Shown one piece after another: positions 6,487 through 46,866 of a stretch of DNA of 51,277 nucleotides. Numbering within the stretch: position 1 is the first letter of the stretch; each line of letters starts with the position of its first letter. The notes under the pieces are model-generated. The model was not told where the DNA came from. It was given only the letters and a program-made list of their open reading frames with translations, and made no database searches. Source of the DNA: Escherichia phage tonnikala; the sequence record NC_049817.1; one strand, 5' to 3'. The translations under genes and the position numbers were made by a program.

Positions 6487-6702
6487 ATGAAAGATTTTAT
6501 TAACGCAGCTACCGCCGGATCTGGCGGTTCATCTATCGCAAGCGCCGCTACAGGGCAGTTAACCATTGCTATTGCCAGTTTTGTTTTAATGGCTGCATTC
6601 GGTGCGTGGGGCGCTTACCTTCGCTGGCGTGATAGTAAAAAATTCCACGAGGCGATCGAAAAAGGTGATATTCAAAAAGCTATTGAGATCAGGGGCAAGT
6701 AA
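6487..6702 (+). CDS. holin (small membrane protein)
   Basis: 71 aa with hydrophobic segment [21 protein letters not shown] and charged C-terminus; immediately upstream of lysozyme. Confidence 0.5.
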
Positions 6703-7193
6703 TGAGCATAAAGAACAGGGTAGCGGCTGCGGCCTTTGGCGTTGCGGTTGCCTTGACTTCTCCACTTCTTGAAGAGATCGAAGGGGTAAGATACAAGCCA
6801 TACAAAGATATTGCGGGAATATGGACGGTTTGCGCAGGAATCACCGGACCAGATGTTATCCTGGGGAAAACGTACACTAAAAAAGAGTGTGATGCTTTGT
6901 TGGCTAAACATATCCAGGTTGCTAAAAAAGAAGTTGACAAGCAGGTTAAGGTTGACATTCCTGATAGTATGCGTGCAGCAATGTACTCATTCACTTATAA
7001 TGCAGGCGTGGGAGCTTTCAGAAATTCAACAATGCTGAAACTCATCAACCAGGGGAAATTAAACGAGGCTTGCGATCAGCTTTATCGTTGGACGTATTAC
7101 CATAACCCCAAAACAGGAAGGCGCGAGAAGTCTAAAGGCTTACTTAACAGGCGCAAGGTCGAATACAAATATTGCACAATGGATCTGAAATGA
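6702..7193 (+). CDS. endolysin, T4-lysozyme-like glycoside hydrolase with probable SAR N-terminus
   Basis: Catalytic E...D...T arrangement (EEIEG...[11 protein letters not shown]); Ala/Gly-rich weakly hydrophobic N-terminus; start overlaps holin stop. Confidence 0.75.
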
Positions 7194-7585
7194 TGAGGAA
7201 ATTTTTACTTACACCAATCGCAATGGCGGTGATCTTGTCTGGATGTTCAAGCGTTACGCCACTGACCGGATTAATCGGCAGTAAGCCGGAAATCACAGCA
7301 CAGGCTGGCGCGGAGAACGTGAAGCAGACAGTTGGCATTACAGCAAAGCAGGACGCCAGCACAAAACAGAAAACCACAATAAAGGAATCTGCGGTTGACA
7401 AGGTGGACACGTCCAGCAAGAAGGATTTCACAACATCAACCATTCAGGCCAATACCATCAAGGCAGACAAAATTCAGGTCGTGCAGGGTAATAACGGCAG
7501 ATGGTACGATCCAGTAATCATATGCGTGGTTGTGTTAATTGTGCTGATTTGTCTTTACTGGAGAGAAAAGAAAAAGGAGGCTTAA
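7190..7585 (+). CDS. unimolecular spanin (T1 gp11-like)
   Basis: Lipoprotein signal with lipobox LSGC at N-terminus plus C-terminal transmembrane segment ([16 protein letters not shown]); ATG overlaps lysozyme stop. Confidence 0.65.
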
Positions 7586-15135: not shown

Positions 15136-15569
15136 GGTTGCAGGGGAGATAGTGAAACCTTCCCCTCTTGCCTCACTTTTCCGCCTGGCTGTCAGTGGCT
15201 GTTGTCTTTTGTTCGCCCCTGTTACCGATTTCAGGCGGCGTGTTTCCGCGAGGTTTTCCGGTGTAGCGAAAACGGAAAAAACAAAAAAAATCCTATATAA
15301 TACATTGAAAATAAAGATTATTTATTTATATATATCTATAATGTTTTCTTTTTGTTCTCACTGTTACAGTGCTTTTTGCTGGGTGTGGTGTGGTTGTGTG
15401 TTGGTATATATGGATAGTTGCGCGCGCGGCGGATTGCATATGTATATATACTTTTTCCGGCGGATTGCGTTAACAGCGTGAACAGAAAAATAACAGCCCT
15501 GAAATCAACAACTTGCGCATGATTTTGTAGTTTTTCGATATTGGTAACGTTTTGAATACAACAAAAACA

Positions 15570-15597
15570 TTGACACGCACCAAATAGCTTTTATAAT
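15570..15597 (+). promoter_or_regulatory. sigma-70-type promoter for rightward early operon
   Basis: TTGACA (15570-15575), 16-nt spacer, TATAAT (15592-15597); about 30 nt upstream of the first rightward gene. Confidence 0.55.
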
Positions 15598-15628
15598 GCG
15601 CCAACAGTCAACAACTGGAGGAAAGGAA

Positions 15629-16093
15629 ATGGAACAGAAGACCACTAAGGACTATTGCGATTGGCTTCGCGAGCTTGGTCGCCGCCTGGCTAGTGGCGAT
15701 ATTGAAGAGTATAAAATGTCACTAATTGACCTGGCCGGAATGTTAAGCGGTGACGACTGCTACAAGATCACGCGCAGTTCATCCTACAGCCGGACCATTA
15801 TCAACCGCGTTCCAGAAGTAAGGGCCGCAGGTCGGGTAAGCATCAAGGTAGAGGAAACGGAAGATGATAAATTTTACGTTTTCCGCATGGTCCGAGAATC
15901 GAAAAGGAAAATCATCACGCCCGAAGAATTGCCAGCCATCAAGGCAAGGGCGATCAAAAAGTTTGCCGATCGCTTACTGGCAGCAATCCCGAACATCGTG
16001 GACCTGGAAGGGGATAAACTGGCTGGAGCTTGTGAGGGCGTAAGCCGCTACCAGGATATGATCCGCGAAATCATCAAAGAGGAGGAGCAATAA
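15629..16093 (+). CDS. hypothetical protein, first gene of rightward early operon
   Basis: Start set at MEQKTTKDY with GGAGG RBS; the track start at 15596 lies inside the promoter -10. Confidence 0.55.
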   Translation: MEQKTTKDYCDWLRELGRRLASGDIEEYKMSLIDLAGMLSGDDCYKITRSSSYSRTIINRVPEVRAAGRVSIKVEETEDDKFYVFRMVRESKRKIITPEELPAIKARAIKKFADRLLAAIPNIVDLEGDKLAGACEGVSRYQDMIREIIKEEEQ

Positions 16094-16365
16094 TGAAAAA
16101 GGCGTTAATCGGCGTTTTGGTGGCAATGGCATTCCTGACCGGATGCAAAGAAGATGGCGCGCATGTTGGCAATGTGCAGATGGCTAACCCTGGCGATGAC
16201 TACAGCGTAAGGGAGCTATTCACCGCTGACGGTTGCACCGTTTACCGATTCTATGACGGTCGCACTGTTTACTTCACCAACTGCAAGGGCACGACTAGCT
16301 GGGAAGTGTCGAAAAGCAATGGCAAAGGCACGAAGACAGAACATATGACCGTCGAGACAAAATAG
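16093..16365 (+). CDS. small lipoprotein
   Basis: Signal peptide with lipobox (MKKALIGVLVAMAFLTGC); 90 aa. Confidence 0.55.
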   Translation: MKKALIGVLVAMAFLTGCKEDGAHVGNVQMANPGDDYSVRELFTADGCTVYRFYDGRTVYFTNCKGTTSWEVSKSNGKGTKTEHMTVETK

Positions 16366-16381
16366 CACTTTTTGTTAAAAC
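16363..16381 (+). promoter_or_regulatory. conserved intergenic motif copy
   Basis: TAG of motif is the stop codon; hairpin GCCAGGC-GCGAA-GCCTGGC then CATAAT 18 nt downstream. Confidence 0.45.
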
Positions 16382-16437
16382 GCCAGGCGCGAAGCCTGGC
16401 ATAATAGCCTCATCGAAACGAGATTGAGGAAACAAAA

Positions 16438-16623
16438 ATGGCACGTCGCATCACCAAAGACCTTAAAGTCCTGAACAAAGAAAACGTAGTTAAAATCCTG
16501 GTTATCTGGGGCTACAACGAAGAAACAGCAAAGCAGAAGGTAGAGGCAGGTTATGACCTGGCTGTAAAAGCAATGCCAAACGACGACGCCAAAGGCATTG
16601 CAAACTATGTAGCGTTCTTTTAA
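16438..16623 (+). CDS. hypothetical protein
   Basis: 61 aa with GAGGAAA RBS. Confidence 0.45.
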   Translation: MARRITKDLKVLNKENVVKILVIWGYNEETAKQKVEAGYDLAVKAMPNDDAKGIANYVAFF

Positions 16624-16638
16624 TTAGCGGGTGAATAA

Positions 16639-16824
16639 ATGAAAACGAAATTAGTCCATAAATCAGAAATCAAGATCGGCGATACTGTGATTCACAACGG
16701 CGAGCTTAGAACGGTTGGCAAAGAGTCAATAAGCCACGATGAATTTATGGGGATCTTGTTGTTCGGTGACTCTTATCGTCTTGGTTACAAGATGGTTGAG
16801 CTTGTGGAAGAGGTAAAATTCTAA
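16639..16824 (+). CDS. hypothetical protein
   Basis: 61 aa. Confidence 0.45.
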   Translation: MKTKLVHKSEIKIGDTVIHNGELRTVGKESISHDEFMGILLFGDSYRLGYKMVELVEEVKF

Positions 16825-16825
16825 A

Positions 16826-16844
16826 TAGCACTTTTTGTTAAAAC
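16826..16844 (+). promoter_or_regulatory. conserved intergenic motif copy
   Basis: Directly after TAA stop; CATAAT 18 nt downstream. Confidence 0.45.
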
Positions 16845-16922
16845 TCAAAAGCGATAACCAGGCATAATAAATCACATAGGGCGGCACGGCGTCGCCCACA
16901 AAACCAATCAGGAGAAAGCATC

Positions 16923-17537
16923 ATGTTAAAACTTGCTGACATTAAATTCCCGATCACTTTCGAATCTCGTGGCGTTGGTCATTACATTTTTACCGATGAG
17001 AAAACATGCCATAACGTTTGGTTGCACAGCGATAAGCCAAGCCCATCAACAATGGAGATTCAGCACTTCATTGATGCGCATAATCAGCACTACAACTCAA
17101 TCCGTGACTACGGCTACGCAATGCCAGGCTACACATGCTTGCACTACAAGCCATATAAGGGCCAGGTGTTACCAGTGCGCTCGCCGGAACGCGCAGAGAT
17201 TCCGATGGTCCACATGAAAACCTGCGACTACAAAAAGCTGTGGTGCTTAAACGTGGACAATATCAAGTATCCGATCACGTTCCGCTCCGCTGGTAATTCA
17301 ACGATTCGCTACACATCGCGCGACAATGGCGTTTATAGCAATGGTCAGAAATCAGGGTTTAAGGTGGATTTCTTTGTTAATGGTCATAATAAATACAATC
17401 CGCACAATGAAAAGATAAGATTTACTATGTGGAAGACATTACAAAACACTTATTTGGAGAAACACCATTCGGCGGCGGAAAGACGTCAATTCAAAAAATC
17501 ATTGGCGAGGAGATCCACAAAGCGGCTGCCGAAATGA
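16923..17537 (+). CDS. hypothetical protein with internal tandem-duplicated domain
   Basis: 204 aa; two related segments (IKFPITFESRGVGHY... and IKYPITFRSAGNSTI...); C-terminus overlaps next ORF. Confidence 0.45.
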   Translation: MLKLADIKFPITFESRGVGHYIFTDEKTCHNVWLHSDKPSPSTMEIQHFIDAHNQHYNSIRDYGYAMPGYTCLHYKPYKGQVLPVRSPERAEIPMVHMKTCDYKKLWCLNVDNIKYPITFRSAGNSTIRYTSRDNGVYSNGQKSGFKVDFFVNGHNKYNPHNEKIRFTMWKTLQNTYLEKHHSAAERRQFKKSLARRSTKRLPK

Positions 17538-17815
17538 AAGCGCCTGGAGGATGGCGTATTGATAAGAGCGCCTTTGCAAATCAAGAAATCGTAACGAAGG
17601 GCGCGATTGAAGATATGCCAGTTGCAGCTACTCTAAAAGGAGTCCGGCTTGATGACGGCACCTGGTTTGAAGTAACGGCTACACCAAAGACGATCGAGAT
17701 TCATGATGACGTTGTTATTCTTCTGCTTCACTACGGCGGCTATAAAAACCGGACGGTTGCAGGTGAGATCAGCATCAAGCGCGGAACGATGGTTAAGTGG
17801 AAGGTGAAGATTTGA
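17429..17815 (+). CDS. hypothetical protein (GTG start in track; overlaps previous ORF by about 108 nt)
   Basis: 128 aa ORF in another frame; true start uncertain, possible frameshift relationship with upstream ORF. Confidence 0.35.
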   Translation: MEDITKHLFGETPFGGGKTSIQKIIGEEIHKAAAEMKAPGGWRIDKSAFANQEIVTKGAIEDMPVAATLKGVRLDDGTWFEVTATPKTIEIHDDVVILLLHYGGYKNRTVAGEISIKRGTMVKWKVKI

Positions 17816-17891
17816 GTTTGTTCACTGCGGCGCACGTCGCCGCATGGATCGGATTGTTTGCCTACCTGTTTAGCTTTTATTGAGGTGAGAG

Positions 17892-18044
17892 ATGGCTACC
17901 TGGATTTTGCTGATTCTTATGATTGATGGCGGCGTTGACCATATCGAAATGAATAGCCAGCAATCTTGCATTGAGGCACGAGAGCAGATCAAGAACAACA
18001 ACAGGTTTTATGCGTACACTCACACGCTATGTATTAAGAAATAG
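17892..18044 (+). CDS. hypothetical small protein (50 aa, below track cutoff)
   Basis: ATG after GAGGTGAGAG; hydrophobic N-terminus MATWILLILMIDGG; stop TAG is part of the next motif copy. Confidence 0.3.
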   Translation: MATWILLILMIDGGVDHIEMNSQQSCIEAREQIKNNNRFYAYTHTLCIKK

Positions 18045-18060
18045 CACTTTTTGTTAAAAC
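18042..18060 (+). promoter_or_regulatory. conserved intergenic motif copy
   Basis: Followed 17 nt downstream by TATAAT inside a GGCCAGG...GGCCC inverted repeat. Confidence 0.45.
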
Positions 18061-18113
18061 TCAAATGTTGGGCCAGGTATAATGGCCCTGCTTTCAACGA
18101 AGGAGATAAAACG

Positions 18114-18551
18114 ATGTACATTAAAAAGAAGATGAAATGCGTTTCCGTTAACTATGCTTGCTCTGGCATGTTCAAGCCTGGCGAAATCTATACGGCGCAA
18201 AAACTGAAAACATCAACCGGATCTTTTTACGTGAGCAATAGTAAGGGGCATCGCATGTTCCTGAACGGCGGCGAAGGCACTAAGGTTATGGCACACGCTA
18301 TGGTAATGGCTGAATTTGAGGAAGTGAAAGATGAAAACAATAAGCGCGTCAAGCACAGGTTTACTGATAACCACGGCGACGCGATTGATGTATACAAGTT
18401 CGGCGATCGCGTGTTTATTGATGGCACGTTTGAATGTGGGCGTAGGCCGGATTTTAGGTCGATACTTACCGTTGACCAAGTGCGCAAGCTGGCAGATAAG
18501 TTAAATGATCTGGCAGATGAAATAGAATACAAACAAATCCATTTTAATTGA
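18114..18551 (+). CDS. hypothetical protein
   Basis: Start set at MYIKKKMK with AGGAG RBS; 145 aa. Confidence 0.5.
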   Translation: MYIKKKMKCVSVNYACSGMFKPGEIYTAQKLKTSTGSFYVSNSKGHRMFLNGGEGTKVMAHAMVMAEFEEVKDENNKRVKHRFTDNHGDAIDVYKFGDRVFIDGTFECGRRPDFRSILTVDQVRKLADKLNDLADEIEYKQIHFN

Positions 18552-18562
18552 TAGGTTTGATA

Positions 18563-19273
18563 ATGAAAAAATACACTTTCGAACTGTGGGGCAAGAAGTA
18601 CGAATTAATCACCAGCAAGCCGATTGTTATCGTTGACCTGGACGGAACACTATCGGACGGATCGCATCGTTTGCATTTGCTGCCAACTGAAAACTTGCAC
18701 CTTACGGAATCGTGGCGCGAGTTTAACAGGGCCGCCGCCGGAGATTCACCGATTAAAAGCACTATCGCGGTTATTAACGGTTTATGGGTGTCGGGATTTG
18801 CCATCGTCATCTTGACCGGACGCAGCGACGAGGTTCGCTATGAAACCTGCAAATGGTTGAATGAGAACGGCGTGAAGTTTGACGAAATCATCATGCGCCG
18901 CCAGGAGGACAACCGAAAGGATACGGTTATTAAAGAAGAAGCCTTGCGCGCTATTGGCCTGGACAACATTGTTTGCGCCTTTGACGATTCGCCGAACGTG
19001 GTTAAGCACTTCCGCAGCTTGGGGATCACAACCTATCAGGTCACGGAATACGACAAGCCACACGCTCACATACAATCTCACGGCGTGGAATCAATAAAGA
19101 TCACGAAGCGCGCCCTATTCGTCGGCAGCAAAGACAGCCTGGTCAATGCCAGCTTTATCAAAGGCAAGGTTTATGATGTTCATAGCCATGATAAAAACCG
19201 ATTCTTTTTGTGGGATGAAAAAGGTTTTGGCTGGTGCTTTGAACACGACGACGGCGATTTTGTTAATGCGTAA
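18563..19273 (+). CDS. HAD-superfamily phosphatase, polynucleotide 3'-phosphatase-like
   Basis: HAD motif I VIVDLDGTLSD, motif II ILTGRSD, motif III K...AFDDS; extra C-terminal domain of about 70 aa. Confidence 0.6.
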   Translation: MKKYTFELWGKKYELITSKPIVIVDLDGTLSDGSHRLHLLPTENLHLTESWREFNRAAAGDSPIKSTIAVINGLWVSGFAIVILTGRSDEVRYETCKWLNENGVKFDEIIMRRQEDNRKDTVIKEEALRAIGLDNIVCAFDDSPNVVKHFRSLGITTYQVTEYDKPHAHIQSHGVESIKITKRALFVGSKDSLVNASFIKGKVYDVHSHDKNRFFLWDEKGFGWCFEHDDGDFVNA

Positions 19274-40614: not shown

Positions 40615-43600
40615 ATGGCTAAATATATGATAAGCGGCAGTAAAGGGGGCGGTCAAAAGCCCTACGTGCCAAAAGAGATGGAAGATAACCTGATCTCGAT
40701 AAACAAGATTAAAGTTTTGCTGGCTGTATCTGATGGCGAGTGCGATCCAGATTTTACGTTGCGTGATCTTTATCTTGATGATGTTCCGGTTATTGCCAGC
40801 GATGGCACTGTTAACTACGAGGGAGTTACGGCTGAATATAGGCCAGGTACGCAGACGCAAGATTACATCCAGGGTTTTACTGACACATCAAGTGAGGTTA
40901 CAGTTGCCAGAGATATTACCGGAGACAATCCTTATGTTATTTCTGTTACAAATAAAAACCTATCTGCGGTAAGAATAAAGATCCTGATGCCAGTAGGCAT
41001 TAAAACAGAGGATAATGGCGATCTTGTTGGCGTAAGGGTTGAGTATGCCGTAGATATGGCTGTTGATGGCGGTTCTTATAGCGAGGTTATGAGAGATGTA
41101 ATTGACGGCAAGACAAGATCAGGATACGACCGCAGCAGAAGGATTGATCTTCCTAAGTTTGATGAGCGCGTTTTAATCAGGGTTAAGCGACTTACCCCAG
41201 ACAGCACATCTTCAAAGGTGACTGATAAAATCAAACTGCAAAGTTACGCTGAGGTTGTGGATGCAAAATTCCGTTATCCTCTGACTGGCCTTGTATTTGT
41301 AGAGTTTGACAGCGAATTGTTTCCTACACAAATACCTAACATTTCTATAAAAAAGAAGTGGAAGATTATTAATGTGCCAAGCAACTATGATCCAATATCA
41401 AGAGAATATCACGGGTCATGGGATGGGACTTTTAAAAAAGCGTGGTCAAATAATCCTGCATGGGTTCTTTATGATCTGGTGACTAATCAGCGTTATGGAC
41501 TTGACCAGCGAGAGTTAGGAATACAGATCGACAAGTGGAGCTTATACGAGGCAGGCGTTTACTGTGATCAGAAAGTTCCAGACGGTAAGGGCGGTACAGA
41601 GCCTCGCTACCTATGCGATGTGGTGATTCAGAATCAAGTTGAGGCTTATCAGCTAATCCGTGACATTTGCTCAATCTTTCGCGGAATGAGCTTTTGGAAT
41701 GGTGAGAGCTTATCAATCGTGATTGATAAGCCGCGCGATCCATCATACGTGTTTACTAATGAAAACGTCATCAACGGTGATTTTCAGTACACAACCGCAA
41801 GCGAAAAAAGCATGTACACGCAATGTAATGTGACGTTTGACGACGAACAAAACATGTATCAACAGGACGTCGAGGGGGTTTTTGATACTGAGGCGGCATT
41901 ACGATTTGGATACAATCCAACAAGCATTACAGCGATCGGGTGTACACGCAGGAGCGAAGCGAATCGTCGAGGTCGGTGGGTTTTGAAAACAAACCTTAGA
42001 AGCACTACTGTAAACTTTTCTACCGGACTAGAGGGGATGATTCCATCCATAGGTGATGTGATTGCTATCGCTGATAATTTTCAGAGCAGCAATCTAACGT
42101 TAAATCTTTCGGGCCGAGTAATGGAAGTTTCAGGCTTGCAAGTTTTCGTTCCGTTTAAGGTTGATGTGCGTCCTGGTGATTTTATTATCATCAACAAGCC
42201 GGACGGAAAGCCAGTTAAGCGAACGATCTCAAAGGTGAGCGCAGACGGAAAAACCATTGAGTTAAATATTGGCTTTGGTTTTGATGTTAAGCCTGATACT
42301 GTTTTTGCGATTGACCGTACTGACCTTGCGTTGCAGCAATACGTTGTGACAACTATCAGCAAGGGTGATGACGAAAACGAGTTTACCTTTTCAATCACGG
42401 CTGTGGAGTACGATCCGAACAAATACGACGAGATTGATTATGGCGTAAACATTGATGACAGGCCAACTTCAATTGTTCAGCCTGACGTGATGGCAGCGCC
42501 GGAGAATGTTCAGATCTCATCTTATTCTCGCGTCGTGCAGGGTGTTAGCGTTGAAACTATGGTTGTTTCATGGGATAAGGTTCCTTACGCATCGCTTTAT
42601 GAAATGCAGTGGCGAAAAGGTGATGGTAACTGGCTGAACACGCCGCAGACCGCTAACAAAGAGATAGAGGTAGAAGGAATTTATTCAGGCAACTACCAAG
42701 TAAGGGTTAGATCTGTTTCTGCAAGTGGGAACACCTCCCCGTGGTCAAAGATTGTAACCGCCACCCTGACAGGTAAAGTTGGCGAGCCAGGAGCGCCGAT
42801 TAATCTTACAGCTTCTGATAATGAAGTTTTTGGCATTCGTGTCAAATGGGGTATGCCGGAAGGATCAGGAGATACGGCTTACATTGAGCTTCACCAATCG
42901 CCAGATGGAACGGTGGAAAACTCAAGTTTGCTTACGCTGATCCCGTATCCTCAATATGAGTATTGGCATAGTACGTTACCAGCTGGGAAAGTTGTATGGT
43001 ATAGAATCCGTAGCGTTGACAGAATAGGCAACGTTTCCGGCTGGACTGACTTTGTTCGTGGCATGGCGTCAGATGATGTTGAATCTGTTTTAGGCGACAT
43101 TCTGGACAAGATTTTTGATACCGAAGCTGGTCAAGAAATCAAAGAGAACGCCATAGACAGTGCCAACAAAATCAAAGACCAGGCGCAATCAATCATCCAG
43201 AACGCTTTGGCAAATGATTCTGATGTTAGAGTTATGAAAAAGGAGAATGGGAAACGGAAAGCTGAATTTAGGCAATCTATACAGATGATTGCTGATGAAA
43301 CAGAGGCAAGGGTAACAGCGTTAACGCAATTAAAAGCAGAATTTGATGAGGAGATAACTAGCGAAGTAACAAGACTTGATCAGGCGATCGCAACAGAATC
43401 AGAAACGCGAGCAACAGCTATAGAGGAATTAAAATCACAGATTGGTGATGATATTCAGGGGCAGTTAACGAGAGTTGAGGAAGCGATTGCAAGCGAAACA
43501 GAGGCGCGCGTTTCTGCCGATACTGCATTAACGGCAAAGTTTGGTGATCTTGAGTCGGCACTTACTGAAAAACTTGATTCATGGGCTGGCGTTGATTCCG

Positions 43601-44040
43601 TTGGTGCTCAATATTCAATGAAGCTGGGCCTAACCTATAATGGTCAGCAGTACAGCGCCGGAATGGTTATGCAGTTAACGCAATCACCGCAAGGATTAAT
43701 ATCACAGATTCTGTTTGACGCTAACAGATTCGCGATCATGACAAGTTCTAGCGGCGGGGCATATACGCTTCCTTTCGTGGTTGAGAATAACCAGGTTTTC
43801 ATCAATAGCTTACTTGTGAAAGATGGTTCAATAACTAATGCCATGATTGGAAACTTTATTCAGTCAAACAATTTTGTTCAAAATCAGCAAGGTTGGAGGC
43901 TTGATAAAAACGGAACATTTGAAAACTACGGATCAACTCCAGGAGAGGGAGCTACTAAATTCACCAACGAAGGATTGAAGGTAAAAGATGCAAACGGAGT
44001 ATTGAGGGTTGAAGTCGGAAGGATTACCGGAAGCTGGTAA
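40615..44040 (+). CDS. tail tip / central fibre protein (lambda gpJ-like host specificity protein)
   Basis: 1141 aa, position after I-like gene, beta-rich domains in the middle, coiled-coil segment near C-terminus. Confidence 0.8.
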   Translation: MAKYMISGSKGGGQKPYVPKEMEDNLISINKIKVLLAVSDGECDPDFTLRDLYLDDVPVIASDGTVNYEGVTAEYRPGTQTQDYIQGFTDTSSEVTVARDITGDNPYVISVTNKNLSAVRIKILMPVGIKTEDNGDLVGVRVEYAVDMAVDGGSYSEVMRDVIDGKTRSGYDRSRRIDLPKFDERVLIRVKRLTPDSTSSKVTDKIKLQSYAEVVDAKFRYPLTGLVFVEFDSELFPTQIPNISIKKKWKIINVPSNYDPISREYHGSWDGTFKKAWSNNPAWVLYDLVTNQRYGLDQRELGIQIDKWSLYEAGVYCDQKVPDGKGGTEPRYLCDVVIQNQVEAYQLIRDICSIFRGMSFWNGESLSIVIDKPRDPSYVFTNENVINGDFQYTTASEKSMYTQCNVTFDDEQNMYQQDVEGVFDTEAALRFGYNPTSITAIGCTRRSEANRRGRWVLKTNLRSTTVNFSTGLEGMIPSIGDVIAIADNFQSSNLTLNLSGRVMEVSGLQVFVPFKVDVRPGDFIIINKPDGKPVKRTISKVSADGKTIELNIGFGFDVKPDTVFAIDRTDLALQQYVVTTISKGDDENEFTFSITAVEYDPNKYDEIDYGVNIDDRPTSIVQPDVMAAPENVQISSYSRVVQGVSVETMVVSWDKVPYASLYEMQWRKGDGNWLNTPQTANKEIEVEGIYSGNYQVRVRSVSASGNTSPWSKIVTATLTGKVGEPGAPINLTASDNEVFGIRVKWGMPEGSGDTAYIELHQSPDGTVENSSLLTLIPYPQYEYWHSTLPAGKVVWYRIRSVDRIGNVSGWTDFVRGMASDDVESVLGDILDKIFDTEAGQEIKENAIDSANKIKDQAQSIIQNALANDSDVRVMKKENGKRKAEFRQSIQMIADETEARVTALTQLKAEFDEEITSEVTRLDQAIATESETRATAIEELKSQIGDDIQGQLTRVEEAIASETEARVSADTALTAKFGDLESALTEKLDSWAGVDSVGAQYSMKLGLTYNGQQYSAGMVMQLTQSPQGLISQILFDANRFAIMTSSSGGAYTLPFVVENNQVFINSLLVKDGSITNAMIGNFIQSNNFVQNQQGWRLDKNGTFENYGSTPGEGATKFTNEGLKVKDANGVLRVEVGRITGSW

Positions 44041-44046
44041 AAAAAA

Positions 44047-44061
44047 GGGGGCGTAGCCCCC
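44047..44061. terminator. bidirectional terminator
   Basis: GGGGGC-GTA-GCCCCC hairpin flanked by A-run (5') and T-rich (3') between converging genes. Confidence 0.5.
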
Positions 44062-44068
44062 TTTAATT

Positions 44069-44683
44069 TTAATCATAGTGTGATGCATTTATAACCAAAA
44101 CAGATGAAGCGGTGTAAATACCAACAGGTCCAGGGGTTTGTGCAACCTGCCTGGAAAAAGAGTAGATCCCGTTACCATACGCGGCAGCTTGAGACTCAAA
44201 AATCATAAATCCACCTAAAGCCGGATTAGGTACAGAGTTTAACGCTGTTAGTGATGGCATTATTGCGCAAGGGTAGCCCAGGTTAACATCAAACGCGATC
44301 CCGCTCACACCAACTTGCTTTGCATCAAGCGGCCTCATTTTTCCATGATAAACCATTTCACCATGAGCGTTATAAAACGCTATGCCGTGACTACCTGGAG
44401 GAGTCACCATGTTACTAAAAGCATAAACAATAACCTCCCCTTGATTATCAGATCTATCAATTCTTATTGCGTGCCTTCCACCATTGTTAAATTGCGTAAA
44501 TGATATGTATGATTTAGCAGTCAATCTAACAAAGAAAAAACATACCCTATCAACAGGAATTGACGAAGTAAAAACGGTTCCGGTATTAGCAGATATTACT
44601 GCCCGATCAATTAGATTAACTGGAGTGAAATCTGGACTTAACCATAACGATCCGTCTGATTTTTTTATACTCATCCCGTACAT
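44069..44683 (-). CDS. hypothetical protein (leftward module adjacent to tail genes)
   Basis: Start set at MYGMS with GGGGGTGA RBS; 204 aa; shares short sequence pattern with upstream 92-aa protein. Confidence 0.5.
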   Translation of the reverse strand: MYGMSIKKSDGSLWLSPDFTPVNLIDRAVISANTGTVFTSSIPVDRVCFFFVRLTAKSYISFTQFNNGGRHAIRIDRSDNQGEVIVYAFSNMVTPPGSHGIAFYNAHGEMVYHGKMRPLDAKQVGVSGIAFDVNLGYPCAIMPSLTALNSVPNPALGGFMIFESQAAAYGNGIYSFSRQVAQTPGPVGIYTASSVLVINASHYD

Positions 44684-44685
44684 TA

Positions 44686-44964
44686 TCACCCCCAAAAAGT
44701 ATATATATATCTTGAATCAGATCCAGAAAGCCCACTCCATGTAACGGTGTCGCCACTTACCCCTAAGTTTGGCGCCCCAGGGTCGCCACCGCGCCAGGAA
44801 TTCATGCCAACATATATTGCTTTCAATGATTTACCTGGCGGCCTGTTTTGGTAAGTCTTGCTACCTGATGGCTGAGTGAATTTATCAAGAAAGAAAACAG
44901 GCGTTAAAAGTCCTGTAACTTCCCTCCCTCGATCGTCATATATTGCATAACCATATTGCGCCAT
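44686..44964 (-). CDS. hypothetical protein
   Basis: 92 aa, Gly-rich. Confidence 0.45.
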   Translation of the reverse strand: MAQYGYAIYDDRGREVTGLLTPVFFLDKFTQPSGSKTYQNRPPGKSLKAIYVGMNSWRGGDPGAPNLGVSGDTVTWSGLSGSDSRYIYTFWG

Positions 44965-45239
44965 TAATTACACCTCAAATCAATAAATTTACTTTCATTT
45001 TGCCAGCGGTTGATAAATTTAACTTCTTTATTGTCAACGCTCAACCTGTATTGCTTTTGGCTGAATCTGTTTTCGCGGACTGCATTAATTTTGACCTCAT
45101 GGAATCCGTTAACAGGGAATGTTTTAACGTTAAATTTTGCCGTGCAATCGATCTCTTTGAAGCCGCCAGTAGGCGACGCTGCGCATCCGGTCAGAGCGGC
45201 TACGGTGGCGATAACTGCGATTAATTTTTTCATCTTCAA
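44964..45239 (-). CDS. lipoprotein, candidate superinfection-exclusion protein
   Basis: Signal peptide plus lipobox (MKKLIAVIATVAALTGC); first gene of leftward operon next to tail-tip genes. Confidence 0.55.
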   Translation of the reverse strand: MKMKKLIAVIATVAALTGCAASPTGGFKEIDCTAKFNVKTFPVNGFHEVKINAVRENRFSQKQYRLSVDNKEVKFINRWQNESKFIDLRCN

Positions 45240-45288
45240 TACTCCTTAGTTGTCGTTGCCTGTAACTATACACGATCCGACAAGCGGC

Positions 45289-45306
45289 GTTTAGCAAAAA
45301 GTGCTA
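45289..45306 (-). promoter_or_regulatory. conserved motif copy (minus orientation, variant) heading leftward operon
   Basis: Reverse complement TAGCACTTTTTGCTAAAC, then 18 nt, then TATAGT, then AAGGAG RBS and ATG at 45239. Confidence 0.45.
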
Positions 45307-45677
45307 CTTGTTATTTTTTGTTTTTCGGTGTTATCGAATTTAAGACGGCGTAAATTTAGCTCAAATTTTAGCCAACATGAGAGCGATAAACAATCAATAA
45401 AATAGATATATACATATAAAATCAATAGTTTATTTATTTATGTATGTATATTTGTTTTTTCTTGTTATCTGTGTTTCTTGTGGTTTTGGTTGTTTGTGGT
45501 GATTTTTCTTTCTGAGTATCTGTATGTGCCATCATTCATGTGTATGTATATAATCCGGCGTATCTGAGAGAACAAAGGGAACAAGAAAAATAACACATAT
45601 TAATCATTGACTTACATTTCAAATTTGTTTTCTTGCAATCTAAGAACGTTTAGAAAACAGAAAAAACAAAACAACTA

Positions 45678-45705
45678 TTGACTAAATCAACCAAATGGCT
45701 ACAAT
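45678..45705 (+). promoter_or_regulatory. sigma-70-type promoter for rightward recombination operon
   Basis: TTGACT, 16-nt spacer, TACAAT; shares CCAAAT(A/G)GC spacer with the promoter at 15570. Confidence 0.5.
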
Positions 45706-45735
45706 GCACACACAAAGCAACAAGGAGCATCAAAG

Positions 45736-46791
45736 ATGAGTGATTTTAACGCCTACACTAGCGAAGAAATGAGCAATGAGCTTTATCATGATCCTAACGC
45801 GTGGACGGCTGAATACGTCAGCGGTTCCAGCTTGGCGGAGATTTACAGCACTTGCCCGGCGTACTGGAAGTACAAGCCTCGCCAGGAAACTAAGGCACTT
45901 GTTTTCGGTACGCAGTCGCATACCAATTTTGAAAGCAAGGAGTTATTCGAAAAAACATATCGCCGCGCACCGTCGCAGGATGATTTTAAAGATCTGATCA
46001 CAAGTCAAACGGCGTTAGCCTCAAAGCTGAAATCTTTTGGCCTGAAAGGTACAACGGGTAAGCAATACCCAGAATTGCTGGAAATGCTGTACAAGTGCGG
46101 TGAGGATCTCAATGTATGGTGGCTTATCGAAATGATGGCAGAATGCCAGGCCGCAGCGGACGGCGTGCAGTTAATCGACGCGAAAGATTATGATGCCTGT
46201 GTAGCGATGCGGCGCGTACTTGAGGCAATACCTGAGCATAATGCTTGCATGAATAGCCCAACCGCGCAGCGTGAAATGTCAATATTCGGGATCATCAATG
46301 GCGTAAAAGTTAAAGTGCGCCTTGATCACGTTGACGTAAACAAGGATGTAAAGGCCACAATCATTAACGGTTACGACGAAAAAGGCCGACCGATTTATGA
46401 AGAAGTCATCTATCCAGAAGCTGTGATTATCACTGACTATAAAACAACGGTTAGCGCAAATCCGGTTGACTTCCAGCGCCTGGCTTACAATCACGGCTAT
46501 TATCTCAAAATGGCTTTGCAGCATGATTTATTTAAAAAGGCGTATCCAGACGAGGAAAGGCCAGTAATTGTGAGATTGCTTGCTCAAGAGAAGAAAGAGC
46601 CTTACTTGCCGCTCGCATTCCGCATGAACATTGAGCAATTGAAGATCGGGCGTATCCAGTACATGAGCGTGATCAACAAGTTCAACGTTTGCCAACAGTT
46701 AGATGAATGGCCTTCGTATGCAAACGGGCAGCCAGAAATTGATCTTGATACTCCTGATTGGGTGCGCGCTCAATTCAGGCAGTATCTATGA
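45736..46791 (+). CDS. PD-(D/E)XK-family exonuclease (RecE/exonuclease VIII-like)
   Basis: 351 aa; D...E-x-K style core (VIITDYKTT); encoded just upstream of Erf and SSB. Confidence 0.5.
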   Translation: MSDFNAYTSEEMSNELYHDPNAWTAEYVSGSSLAEIYSTCPAYWKYKPRQETKALVFGTQSHTNFESKELFEKTYRRAPSQDDFKDLITSQTALASKLKSFGLKGTTGKQYPELLEMLYKCGEDLNVWWLIEMMAECQAAADGVQLIDAKDYDACVAMRRVLEAIPEHNACMNSPTAQREMSIFGIINGVKVKVRLDHVDVNKDVKATIINGYDEKGRPIYEEVIYPEAVIITDYKTTVSANPVDFQRLAYNHGYYLKMALQHDLFKKAYPDEERPVIVRLLAQEKKEPYLPLAFRMNIEQLKIGRIQYMSVINKFNVCQQLDEWPSYANGQPEIDLDTPDWVRAQFRQYL

Positions 46792-46866
46792 CAAACTAAA
46801 CAAATAGCTAAACTTTTATAATGGTTGGTGATATAATTCGCCAACCAGATAACGGGAGAATGAGAG

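What the first reader, a model, noticed from the sequence alone, without database searches (positions are those of the whole stretch)
44964..45239. Lipoprotein gene transcribed divergently beside the tail-tip genes: candidate superinfection-exclusion factor
A 91-aa lipoprotein is the first gene of a leftward operon driven from the 45 kb hub, directly adjacent to the J-like gene. Phages such as T5 (Llp) and T1/phi80 (Cor) encode early-expressed lipoproteins near receptor-binding genes that block the receptor after infection. A second lipoprotein at 16093..16365 may play a similar role.
Basis: inference. Interest (0 to 1): 0.55.

Follow-up and report, generated by a model that had tools for sequence, protein, structure and literature searches.

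The report
Receptor-blocking lipoprotein of a T1-like phage
This small gene makes an outer-membrane lipoprotein that a T1-like coliphage carries together with its receptor-binding genes, most likely to shut the host's BtuB receptor after infection; this arrangement is already described for this phage group, so the finding is correct but ordinary.

Summary
The ORF is real. Its true start is ATG 45233 (89 aa); it has an AAGGAG ribosome-binding site and the lipobox LTG|C. The window is a Warwickvirus (Drexlerviridae), 99.4% identical here to phage FritzSarasin, whose terminal receptor is experimentally BtuB.

The lipoprotein is the first cistron of a tightly coupled three-gene leftward operon: lipoprotein, then 92 aa, then 204 aa. 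The last two are the putative receptor-binding proteins. The operon ends at a bidirectional terminator shared with the J-like gene.

It occupies the slot held by cor in the congeneric FhuA phage PeterMerian. Promoter, ribosome-binding site and signal peptide are shared. Homology breaks exactly after the lipobox cysteine and resumes in the J C-terminus. The mature domain and the two receptor-binding genes therefore form one swappable specificity cassette.

The superinfection-exclusion reading is supported by inference and already published for these loci. The second lipoprotein (16093..16365) does not track the receptor.

The parts
45292..45306 (-). Upstream promoter-class motif TAGCACTTTTTGCTA (a perfect 5-5-5 palindrome), centred about 42 nt upstream of the inferred transcription start
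   Evidence: 18 copies in the window against 0.22 expected by chance. In most copies a -10-like hexamer, an RBS and an ATG follow at fixed spacing.
45265..45270 (-). -10-like hexamer TATAGT of the lipoprotein operon promoter
   Evidence: It lies 21 nt downstream of the motif, as in the other copies. GTGTATAGTT is conserved upstream of the lipoprotein gene in KarlJaspers and of cor in PeterMerian. The stringent sigma-70 scan did not call it because there is no good -35.
45242..45247 (-). Ribosome-binding site AAGGAG, 8 nt before ATG 45233
   Evidence: Read from the sequence.
45183..45233 (-). Signal peptide with lipobox (MKKLIAVIATVAALTG|C); Cys17 is the lipidated residue
   Evidence: This stretch is shared with cor of PeterMerian; DNA homology resumes at 45180.
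44964..45182 (-). Mature 72-residue lipoprotein domain plus stop codon: the candidate BtuB-blocking superinfection-exclusion factor, with invariant Cys30 and Cys88 (precursor numbering)
44686..44964 (-). Second cistron, 92 aa ('small' protein of the receptor-binding locus); its ATG overlaps the lipoprotein stop (TAATG)
   Evidence: phrog_557 E 4e-20. 71-72% identical in KarlJaspers and Zar3M; weak similarity to the PeterMerian small protein, E 0.003. No signal peptide or membrane segment.
44069..44683 (-). Third cistron, 204 aa from ATG 44683 ('large' protein, the putative BtuB receptor-binding protein); starts 2 nt after the previous stop
   Evidence: phrog_425 E 2e-49. 61-65% identical in KarlJaspers and Zar3M. 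N-terminal 149 aa are 27.5% identical to the PeterMerian FhuA-type large protein, E 5e-9. The start is inferred from orthologues.
44044..44064 (.). Bidirectional intrinsic terminator shared by the J-like gene and the leftward operon
   Evidence: 9-bp stem with T runs on both strands.
40615..44040 (+). J-like tail-tip gene; its last ~170 codons (43525..44040) diverge together with the cassette
   Evidence: Against PeterMerian: 92.7% identity up to 43415, 73.7% over 43525..44054.
45736..46791 (+). Exonuclease VIII-like gene, the divergent neighbour across the 500-bp intergenic hub
   Evidence: A plus-strand promoter-like site TTGACT-16-TACAAT lies at 45678..45705.
16093..16365 (+). Second lipoprotein named in the finding (DUF4884); not part of the receptor cassette
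   Evidence: Pfam DUF4884 E 5e-8. Its alleles do not follow the receptor type.

Best explanation
The gene encodes an outer-membrane lipoprotein that is the receptor-masking (superinfection-exclusion) component of a BtuB-type host-recognition cassette.

Proposed sequence of events:
1. A phage promoter at 45306..45265 drives a tricistronic leftward mRNA: lipoprotein, 92-aa protein, 204-aa protein. It ends at the terminator 44064..44044.
2. The precursor is exported, lipidated on Cys17 and cleaved before it. Having Ala rather than Asp at +2, it is sent to the inner leaflet of the outer membrane.
3. The 72-residue mature domain is a small SH3-like beta-barrel, probably clamped by a Cys30-Cys88 disulphide as in T5 Llp.
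4. It binds the periplasmic face of the TonB-dependent transporter BtuB and locks it in a state the phage's own receptor-binding protein cannot use.
5. Infected cells and their debris then no longer adsorb this phage or other BtuB-dependent phages.

Shown here: the gene, its signals, the operon structure, its conservation, its positional equivalence to cor, and its co-inheritance with the receptor-binding genes.
Taken from the literature: BtuB is the receptor of the near-identical phage FritzSarasin, and the analogous lipoproteins Llp (FhuA) and Rtp45 (LptD) bind their receptors from the periplasm.
Inferred: binding to BtuB, the disulphide, the exclusion phenotype and the timing of expression.
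For: - Identity of the phage: 99.4% nucleotide identity to FritzSarasin over 44000..45750. FritzSarasin (Bas04, Warwickvirus) and KarlJaspers (Bas06) are experimentally BtuB-dependent, while PeterMerian (Bas05, same genus) uses FhuA.
- Lipoprotein signals.
- Operon: TAATG overlap, 2-nt gap and shared terminator. The promoter-class motif occurs 18 times against 0.22 expected, and the copy at 45306..45292 has the standard spacing to a -10, RBS and ATG.
- Same slot as cor: T1 and PeterMerian read J> small> large> <cor, then the exonuclease gene. Upstream region, RBS and signal peptide are shared with PeterMerian cor.
- Natural swap: window against PeterMerian shows no DNA homology across 44055..45179. 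That stretch is exactly the mature lipoprotein domain plus both receptor-binding genes. Homology resumes at 45180, the end of the signal peptide.
- The trio is inherited as a unit in KarlJaspers, Dhillonvirus Zar3M, SaltyDalty and a metagenomic contig, with parallel divergence. Lipoprotein/small/large identities are 57/72/65, 53/71/61 and 44/52/45%.
- Cor/Llp hallmark: N-proximal C-[TE]-A-x-[YF] and C-terminal F-x4-C cysteines are invariant. In Llp the Cys11-Cys58 disulphide ties the termini and is shared with Cor (PMC9586334).
- Profile-profile, mature domains only: family against Cor gives P 4.6e-5 over the full length.
- Literature: these loci are described as receptor-binding proteins plus cognate exclusion proteins. 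Cor-like proteins are noted in BtuB-using Tempevirinae. Rtp45 from the equivalent locus binds the periplasmic face of LptD.
- It is not the spanin: the lysis cassette with its u-spanin is at 6487..7582.
Against: - I found no experimental data for this allele.
- The database label 'Cor' rests mainly on the signal peptide. The mature domain alone gives no PHROG 1119 hit at E<=1; the KarlJaspers orthologue gives E 0.028.
- The full-length protein scores 18 bits against the NCBIfam Cor model, cutoff 31.
- The mature-domain profile does not reach Cor, Llp or Rtp45 in 1.84 billion proteins or in PDB sequences.
- Foldseek against PDB finds nothing.
- AlphaFold models of such lipoproteins are known to be unreliable.
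- Co-transcription and tight coupling with presumed structural receptor-binding genes sits oddly with the 'early' expression reported for T5 Llp. Timing here is unknown.
- Some family members occur away from any receptor-binding locus: among early genes of a Proteus phage and on a plasmid/ICE-like contig. The family's target is therefore not proven uniform.
Confidence: 0.8

Rival explanations
1. It is a receptor-masking lipoprotein, but its target is not BtuB. It could act on another outer-membrane or periplasmic component needed for entry, such as TonB or a different transporter, or it could act from the cell surface after being flipped outward.
For: BtuB binding is inferred only from linkage to the BtuB-type locus. 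Stand-alone homologues occur in phages and on a plasmid/ICE-like contig whose receptors are unknown. A surface location has been discussed for some exclusion lipoproteins.
Against: The mature domain is exchanged together with the receptor-binding genes, with breakpoints hugging it. Its divergence parallels theirs. In both solved cases the lipoprotein binds the phage's own terminal receptor from the periplasm.
Confidence: 0.1
2. It is an assembly or lysis accessory, for example an o-spanin-like lipoprotein or a factor needed for maturation of the receptor-binding proteins. Its tight coupling to those genes would then reflect a structural role rather than exclusion.
For: It is coupled to the two receptor-binding cistrons by a stop/start overlap and a 2-nt gap in one operon. 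In SaltyDalty the trio lies directly downstream of J on the same strand, that is, in the late tail operon.
Against: The protein is exported and lipid-anchored, while the receptor-binding proteins have no signal peptide and assemble in the cytoplasm. A complete holin-endolysin-u-spanin cassette exists at 6487..7582. In FhuA-type loci the equivalent gene (cor) is a separate, oppositely oriented transcription unit with a known exclusion function.
Confidence: 0.05
3. [quoted passage not shown]
For: PHROG 1119 'Cor' E 1.1e-7 for the full-length protein. The Kalemo annotation says Cor. It has the same genomic slot and signal peptide as cor.
Against: Without the signal peptide the PHROG hit vanishes. 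The protein scores 18 bits against a 31-bit cutoff for the NCBIfam Cor equivalog, whereas T1 Cor scores 55.8. The near-identical phage uses BtuB, not FhuA. The FhuA phage of the same genus carries a different mature domain that is a clear Cor.
Confidence: 0.03

Closest known systems
Cor exclusion lipoprotein of T1, phi80, N15 and HK022 (PHROG 1119; NCBIfam NF047972)
   Same: A small outer-membrane lipoprotein in the same slot between the J-linked receptor-binding genes and the exonuclease/recombination genes, in the same orientation. Promoter region, RBS and signal peptide are shared with cor of the congeneric phage PeterMerian. The N-proximal and C-terminal cysteine pair and the W/Y-x5-F-x4-C tail are shared. 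Profile-profile P is 4.6e-5.
   Different: The mature domain is 14 residues longer and fails both curated Cor models. The predicted target is BtuB, not FhuA. Here the two receptor-binding genes are inverted, so they are co-transcribed with the lipoprotein. In Cor loci they follow J on the other strand and cor stands alone.
Llp, the lytic-conversion lipoprotein of phage T5 (PDB 8A60 chain B, in complex with FhuA)
   Different: No significant sequence similarity (hhalign P 0.024) and no Foldseek hit. Llp is transcribed divergently from pb5 from its own early promoter. Here the lipoprotein shares an operon with the receptor-binding genes.
Receptor-blocking lipoproteins of BtuB-dependent T5-like phages (BF23 Llp; phiR2-01 g145)
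   Same: The same predicted receptor (BtuB). Same size class, lipobox and C-T-A-Y ... D-C cysteine pattern. Weak predicted-fold match in BFVD, TM 0.52.
   Different: No detectable sequence homology, and a different phage family and locus type. The BFVD match is not significant (E 0.33).
Rtp45, the exclusion lipoprotein of phage Rtp (PDB 9RPS, in complex with LptDE)
   Same: It is encoded in the equivalent locus downstream of the J-like gene in a Drexlerviridae phage. It is experimentally shown to bind the periplasmic side of the phage's terminal receptor and block receptor-binding-protein attachment.
   Different: About 6 kDa, with a different fold (long hairpin, Cys30-Cys38). Its target is a non-TonB-dependent protein. 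No sequence match to the window family in PDB sequences.
BtuB-type 'bona fide RBP locus' of small siphoviruses (Maffei et al. 2021, PMC8594841)
   Same: This is that locus. It is 99.4% identical to FritzSarasin (Bas04) and homologous to KarlJaspers (Bas06) and to Dhillonvirus Zar3M and PTXU06.
   Different: Nothing substantive. This analysis adds the exact swap boundaries, the operon signals and the test of the Cor label.

Membership tests
Cor exclusion lipoprotein (PHROG 1119 / NCBIfam NF047972) | Whole-protein score above the curated family threshold | tested here: not met
   NCBIfam NF047972: 18.0 bits against a cutoff of 31. T1 Cor as positive control scores 55.8 bits.
Cor exclusion lipoprotein (PHROG 1119 / NCBIfam NF047972) | Sequence similarity of the mature domain, not only the signal peptide | tested here: inconclusive
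   Mature domain against PHROG 1119: no hit at E<=1 for the window protein, E 0.028 for the KarlJaspers orthologue, 3e-19 for T1 Cor. hhalign of mature-domain alignments: P 4.6e-5, probability 41%, full length. HMM search of 1.84 billion proteins does not reach Cor.
Cor exclusion lipoprotein (PHROG 1119 / NCBIfam NF047972) | Lipoprotein signal peptide with lipobox and no inner-membrane retention residue at +2 | tested here: met
   MKKLIAVIATVAALTG|CA. Position +2 is A, T, S or G across the close homologues aligned.
Cor exclusion lipoprotein (PHROG 1119 / NCBIfam NF047972) | Position next to the J-linked small and large genes, facing the recombination genes | tested here: met
   Same slot and orientation as cor in T1 and PeterMerian, with a shared upstream region and signal peptide.
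Cor exclusion lipoprotein (PHROG 1119 / NCBIfam NF047972) | Inactivates FhuA and excludes FhuA-dependent phages | not testable with these tools
   Predicted not to apply: the near-identical phage FritzSarasin uses BtuB.
Llp-type receptor-blocking lipoprotein (T5) | Small beta fold resembling Llp in PDB 8A60 | tested here: inconclusive
Llp-type receptor-blocking lipoprotein (T5) | Cysteine pair tying the N- and C-termini of the mature domain (Cys11-Cys58 in Llp) | tested here: met
   Cys30 and Cys88 (mature positions 14 and 72) are invariant in the family and align with the Cor/Llp cysteines. Disulphide formation itself is inferred.
Llp-type receptor-blocking lipoprotein (T5) | Detectable sequence homology to Llp | tested here: not met
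   hhalign P 0.024, probability 1%. No PDB sequence hit.
Llp-type receptor-blocking lipoprotein (T5) | Binds the periplasmic face of the phage's TonB-dependent receptor and abolishes adsorption | not testable with these tools
   Needs expression and adsorption assays, or a complex structure or model with BtuB.
BtuB-type receptor-binding locus of Drexlerviridae/Dhillonvirus | Located immediately downstream of the J-like gene | tested here: met
   The cassette 44069..45233 abuts the J stop at 44040 through a shared terminator.
BtuB-type receptor-binding locus of Drexlerviridae/Dhillonvirus | All cassette genes homologous to those of phages with experimentally proven BtuB dependence | tested here: met
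   FritzSarasin: lipoprotein 100% identical, locus 99.4%. KarlJaspers: 57/72/65% identity for the three proteins. Receptors are from the BASEL S5 table.
BtuB-type receptor-binding locus of Drexlerviridae/Dhillonvirus | This phage itself requires BtuB | not testable with these tools
   Requires plating on a btuB mutant.
Rtp45-type exclusion lipoprotein (LptD) | Sequence or fold similarity to Rtp45 (PDB 9RPS) | tested here: not met

The most novel reading that the evidence does not exclude
The mature domain is not a Cor. It is a separate, small family (17 clusters among 1.84 billion proteins) of periplasmic lipoproteins dedicated to shutting BtuB. It would be built as a swappable cassette with its receptor-binding genes, with the lipobox-coding sequence serving as the recombination joint. 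Copies of the same domain that have escaped to a plasmid/ICE-like element and to unrelated large phages would then act as stand-alone receptor-masking defence genes. If confirmed, this would be the first Drexlerviridae BtuB-blocker characterised. It would also be a second case, after Llp on FhuA, of a TonB-dependent transporter being closed from the periplasm, showing that the mechanism generalises.
Probability: 0.45. Interest if true: 0.4.

Novelty: already known. Interest (0 to 1): 0.2.

Why it matters
Receptor-masking lipoproteins determine whether phage progeny are wasted on debris and whether co-infecting phages, colicins or vitamin B12 can still use the receptor. That matters for phage-cocktail design and for engineering receptor specificity. 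For this locus the concept is already published. What remains open is the biochemical proof for BtuB and the structural mechanism.

The practical points added here are these:
- The 'Cor' label produced by automatic annotation is driven by the signal peptide, not the mature domain.
- The specificity cassette has precise boundaries (44055..45179) that begin right after the lipobox cysteine. This is useful for designing receptor swaps that keep the exclusion factor matched to the receptor-binding protein.

Tried and rejected
- Foldseek of the AF2 model against PDB: no hit at E<=0.001, and Llp is not in the top 50.
- PDB sequence search with the mature-domain profile: only chance hits such as gp120.
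- Rfam scan of 43900..45900: only a sub-threshold hit on the terminator.
- Pfam: only a lipid-attachment-site motif below threshold.
- PHROG search with the signal peptide removed: the Cor hit disappears. I therefore rejected the idea that the full-length Cor hit proves family membership.
- Stringent sigma-70 scan: no minus-strand promoter in the hub. The promoter was found only through the repeated motif.
- Spanin hypothesis: rejected, because a complete lysis cassette lies at 6487..7582.
- Second lipoprotein as a receptor-linked exclusion factor: rejected as unsupported. Phages with a 96-100% identical first lipoprotein (atuna, tiwna, Kalemo, mar001J1) carry the 46-50% allele of the second one, the same allele group as the FhuA phages PeterMerian and JakobBernoulli. 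The family also occurs in LptD phages, Serratia phages of about 68 kb and a Xanthomonas jumbo phage.
- Antisense ORFs 44943..45224(+) and 45010..45249(+) were treated as shadow ORFs and not tested separately.
- A complex model with BtuB could not be run: structure prediction takes single chains from the window only.

Full report
**What the window is.** The region 44000..45750 is 99.4% identical to Escherichia phage FritzSarasin and 95-98% identical to some forty other T1-like coliphages. The neighbouring genes are typical of Drexlerviridae: a J-like tail-tip gene (40615..44040, +), exonuclease VIII, Erf, SSB, and a lateral tail fibre on the minus strand. According to the BASEL collection's S5 table, FritzSarasin (Bas04; Tempevirinae, Warwickvirus) uses BtuB as its terminal receptor. 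So does KarlJaspers (Bas06, Hanrivervirus). PeterMerian (Bas05, also Warwickvirus) and JakobBernoulli (Bas07) use FhuA.

**Check of the observation.**
- The ORF exists at 44964..45239(-).
- The TTG at 45239 is merely the first permissible start. ATG 45233 is preceded by AAGGAG at an 8-nt spacing and is the start used in annotated orthologues. The product is 89 aa.
- MKKLIAVIATVAALTG|C is a canonical lipoprotein signal with a lipobox. The +2 residue is never Asp in the close homologues aligned. By the established Lol sorting rule this predicts an outer-membrane location.
- The protein is found in 88 phage records and has 32 invariant positions among 13 sequences that go down to 53% identity.
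- Corrections: two genes separate it from J. Its operon converges on J at a shared bidirectional terminator (44044..44064). It diverges only from the exonuclease gene.

**Operon anatomy.** On the minus strand the lipoprotein stop overlaps the next start (TAATG). That gene encodes a 92-aa protein (44964..44686). Two bases after its stop, ATG 44683 opens a 204-aa protein (to 44069), followed at once by the terminator.

Upstream, a 15-nt motif TAGCACTTTTTG(T/C)TA occurs 18 times in the window against 0.22 expected. In most copies it is followed after 21-22 nt by cATAAT or TATAGT, then about 30 nt, an RBS and an ATG. The copy at 45306..45292, with TATAGT at 45270..45265, fits this pattern. The leftward operon therefore has a promoter of the class used by many non-structural transcription units of this phage. 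The motif centre falls near -42, so it may be an activator site; that is inference. The plain sigma-70 scan missed this promoter.

**What the neighbours are.** The 92-aa and 204-aa proteins match phrog_557 and phrog_425. These are the same families as T1 ST32/ST31 and their N15/HK022 counterparts. [quoted passage not shown] The literature treats this locus as the receptor-binding-protein locus. The large protein's first 149 residues are 27.5% identical to the FhuA-type large protein of PeterMerian (E 5e-9). The small proteins are weakly similar (E 0.003).

**Positional equivalence to cor and a natural swap.** In T1 and PeterMerian the order is J> small> large> <cor, then the exonuclease gene. 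In the window it is J> <large <small <lipoprotein, then the exonuclease gene. The lipoprotein keeps the slot and orientation of cor, while the small/large pair is inverted and so joins its transcript.

The upstream region, RBS and first 18 codons are shared between the window gene and PeterMerian cor. BLASTN of the window against PeterMerian gives:
- 92.7% identity through J up to 43415;
- 73.7% over 43525..44054;
- nothing across 44055..45179;
- 80.9% from 45180 onward.

The non-homologous block is exactly the mature lipoprotein domain plus both receptor-binding genes. Its right boundary is the codon after the lipobox cysteine. Against KarlJaspers (BtuB) the whole stretch 43525..46813 is colinear at 72.5%.

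The trio is also intact in Dhillonvirus Zar3M, in SaltyDalty (where it lies co-directional right after J) and in a metagenomic contig. Divergence of the three proteins runs in parallel. This co-inheritance is the strongest in-silico evidence that the lipoprotein's function is tied to receptor specificity.

**Is it a Cor?** The full-length protein hits PHROG 1119 'Cor' at E 1.1e-7, and phage Kalemo's annotation carries that label. The control fails:
- With the signal peptide removed, the window protein gives no Cor hit at E<=1. Its KarlJaspers orthologue gives E 0.028, and T1 Cor gives 3e-19.
- The NCBIfam Cor equivalog scores 18 bits against a 31-bit cutoff, while T1 Cor scores 55.8.
- tblastn and pairwise BLAST match Cor only over residues 1-34.
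- A mature-domain HMM run against 1.84 billion representative proteins finds only 17 proteins. All those retrieved are 87-108-aa lipoproteins sharing VDC...TFP...VR-DRFG...WQ...F-x4-C. None of them is Cor.

Some signal does remain. hhalign of mature-domain alignments gives P 4.6e-5 over the full length of Cor. That is far better than this family against Llp (0.024) or Cor against Llp (0.021). All four groups (this family, Cor, T5 Llp, phiR2-01 g145) share an N-proximal C-[TE]-A-x-[YF] and a C-terminal F-x(3-5)-C. In Llp these cysteines form the Cys11-Cys58 disulphide that ties the termini, a feature noted as shared with Cor.

My reading is that this is a distinct family. It may be a very distant relative of Cor, and it is functionally analogous. 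It is not a member by any curated threshold.

**Structure.** AlphaFold2 on the mature domain (11-sequence alignment) gives a five-strand all-beta model with pLDDT 79.9.
- Foldseek against PDB finds nothing.
- In BFVD the best matches are family members in Proteus and Providencia phages. The 'receptor-blocking protein' of the BtuB-dependent T5-like phage phiR2-01 appears at rank 14 without significance.

This is compatible with an Llp-like fold but not specific. Published work also warns that predicted models of Llp and Rtp45 differ from the experimental structures.

**Mechanism proposed.**
- Shown here: gene, signals, operon, conservation and cassette linkage.
[quoted passage not shown] Rtp45, from the equivalent Drexlerviridae locus, binds periplasmic LptD and prevents attachment of the receptor-binding protein. 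Authors expect the same for other TonB-dependent transporters and have noted Cor-like proteins in BtuB-using Tempevirinae.
- Inferred: the mature domain, anchored in the inner leaflet of the outer membrane and disulphide-clamped, binds BtuB from the periplasm and makes it unusable for the phage's receptor-binding protein. That would protect infected cells from superinfection and progeny from adsorbing to debris. Co-expression with the receptor-binding genes would fit the progeny-protection role. Expression timing is unknown.

**Second lipoprotein (16093..16365).** It is a real lipoprotein (MKKALIGVLVAMAFLTG|C) with a DUF4884 domain. Its alleles do not follow the receptor. Phages carrying a 96-100% identical first lipoprotein (atuna, tiwna, Kalemo, mar001J1) have the 46-50% allele of the second. 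That is the same allele group as the FhuA phages PeterMerian and JakobBernoulli. Relatives also occur in the LptD phages Rtp and JeanPiccard, in Serratia phages of about 68 kb and in a Xanthomonas jumbo phage. Nothing links it to the terminal receptor, and its function remains unknown.

**Novelty and verdict.** The locus type, its receptor association (including this very phage lineage) and the reading of its lipoprotein as the cognate exclusion factor are all published.

Modest additions from this analysis:
- the Cor label is driven by the signal peptide;
- the mature domain defines its own small family;
- the cassette boundary sits exactly at the lipobox;
- the lipoprotein is tightly coupled to the receptor-binding genes under a phage promoter class repeated 18 times.

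Interest is low (0.2).

Noticed in passing
window, 18 sites (e.g. 3574, 4645, 10932, 13695, 14999, 16363, 16826, 18042, 19274, 22070, 45292, 50801): A 15-nt motif TAGCACTTTTTG(T/C)TA occurs 18 times against 0.22 expected. It is usually followed after 21-22 nt by a -10-like hexamer, an RBS and an ATG. This looks like a phage-specific promoter or activator-site class centred near -42. Only two copies are perfect palindromes, and both sit beside host-recognition genes: the lipoprotein/receptor-binding operon and the lateral tail fibre gene start.
   Followed up: partly
window 45400..45600 and 15290..15500: Two AT-rich divergent intergenic hubs share a ~200-bp segment that is ~68% identical by BLAST. 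It includes a conserved TTCCGGCG..AT.TG...AACA...GAACA core. Its function is unknown; a regulatory or origin-like role is possible.
   Followed up: partly
window 16079..16149 and 45180..45233: For both lipoprotein genes, DNA homology to the congeneric phage PeterMerian covers the signal-peptide codons and stops right after the lipobox, while the mature domains differ. Signal-peptide sequences may act as recombination joints for swapping lipoprotein domains.
   Followed up: partly
L011 5001..5264 (Logan contig SRR29409118_26, 62.6 kb): A distant member of the lipoprotein family (P0018) sits alone on a contig with DnaB, Hha and TraG_N genes, so it looks like a plasmid or ICE. No receptor-binding genes are nearby. 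It could be a stand-alone receptor-masking defence gene.
   Followed up: no
L007 4028..4276 (Proteus phage 3H10_20, Privateervirus, 90 kb): A 29%-identical homologue with the same predicted fold (BFVD TM 0.76) lies among tRNA genes and early genes of an unrelated large phage, without the small/large partner genes.
   Followed up: no
window 44069..44964: [quoted passage not shown] The names look like inherited misnomers for tail-tip receptor-binding components.
   Followed up: partly
window 43416..44040: The last ~170 codons of the J-like gene are only 73.7% identical to PeterMerian, against 92.7% for the rest, and 43416..43524 has no match. The J C-terminus appears to co-vary with the receptor cassette, as suggested in bioRxiv 10.64898/2026.04.02.716166.
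   Followed up: partly
window 15400..19270: This stretch of small early genes is largely non-homologous to PeterMerian, although the genomes are otherwise 89-98% identical. It is a mosaic accessory region that includes the DUF7174 gene and the DUF4884 lipoprotein.
   Followed up: no
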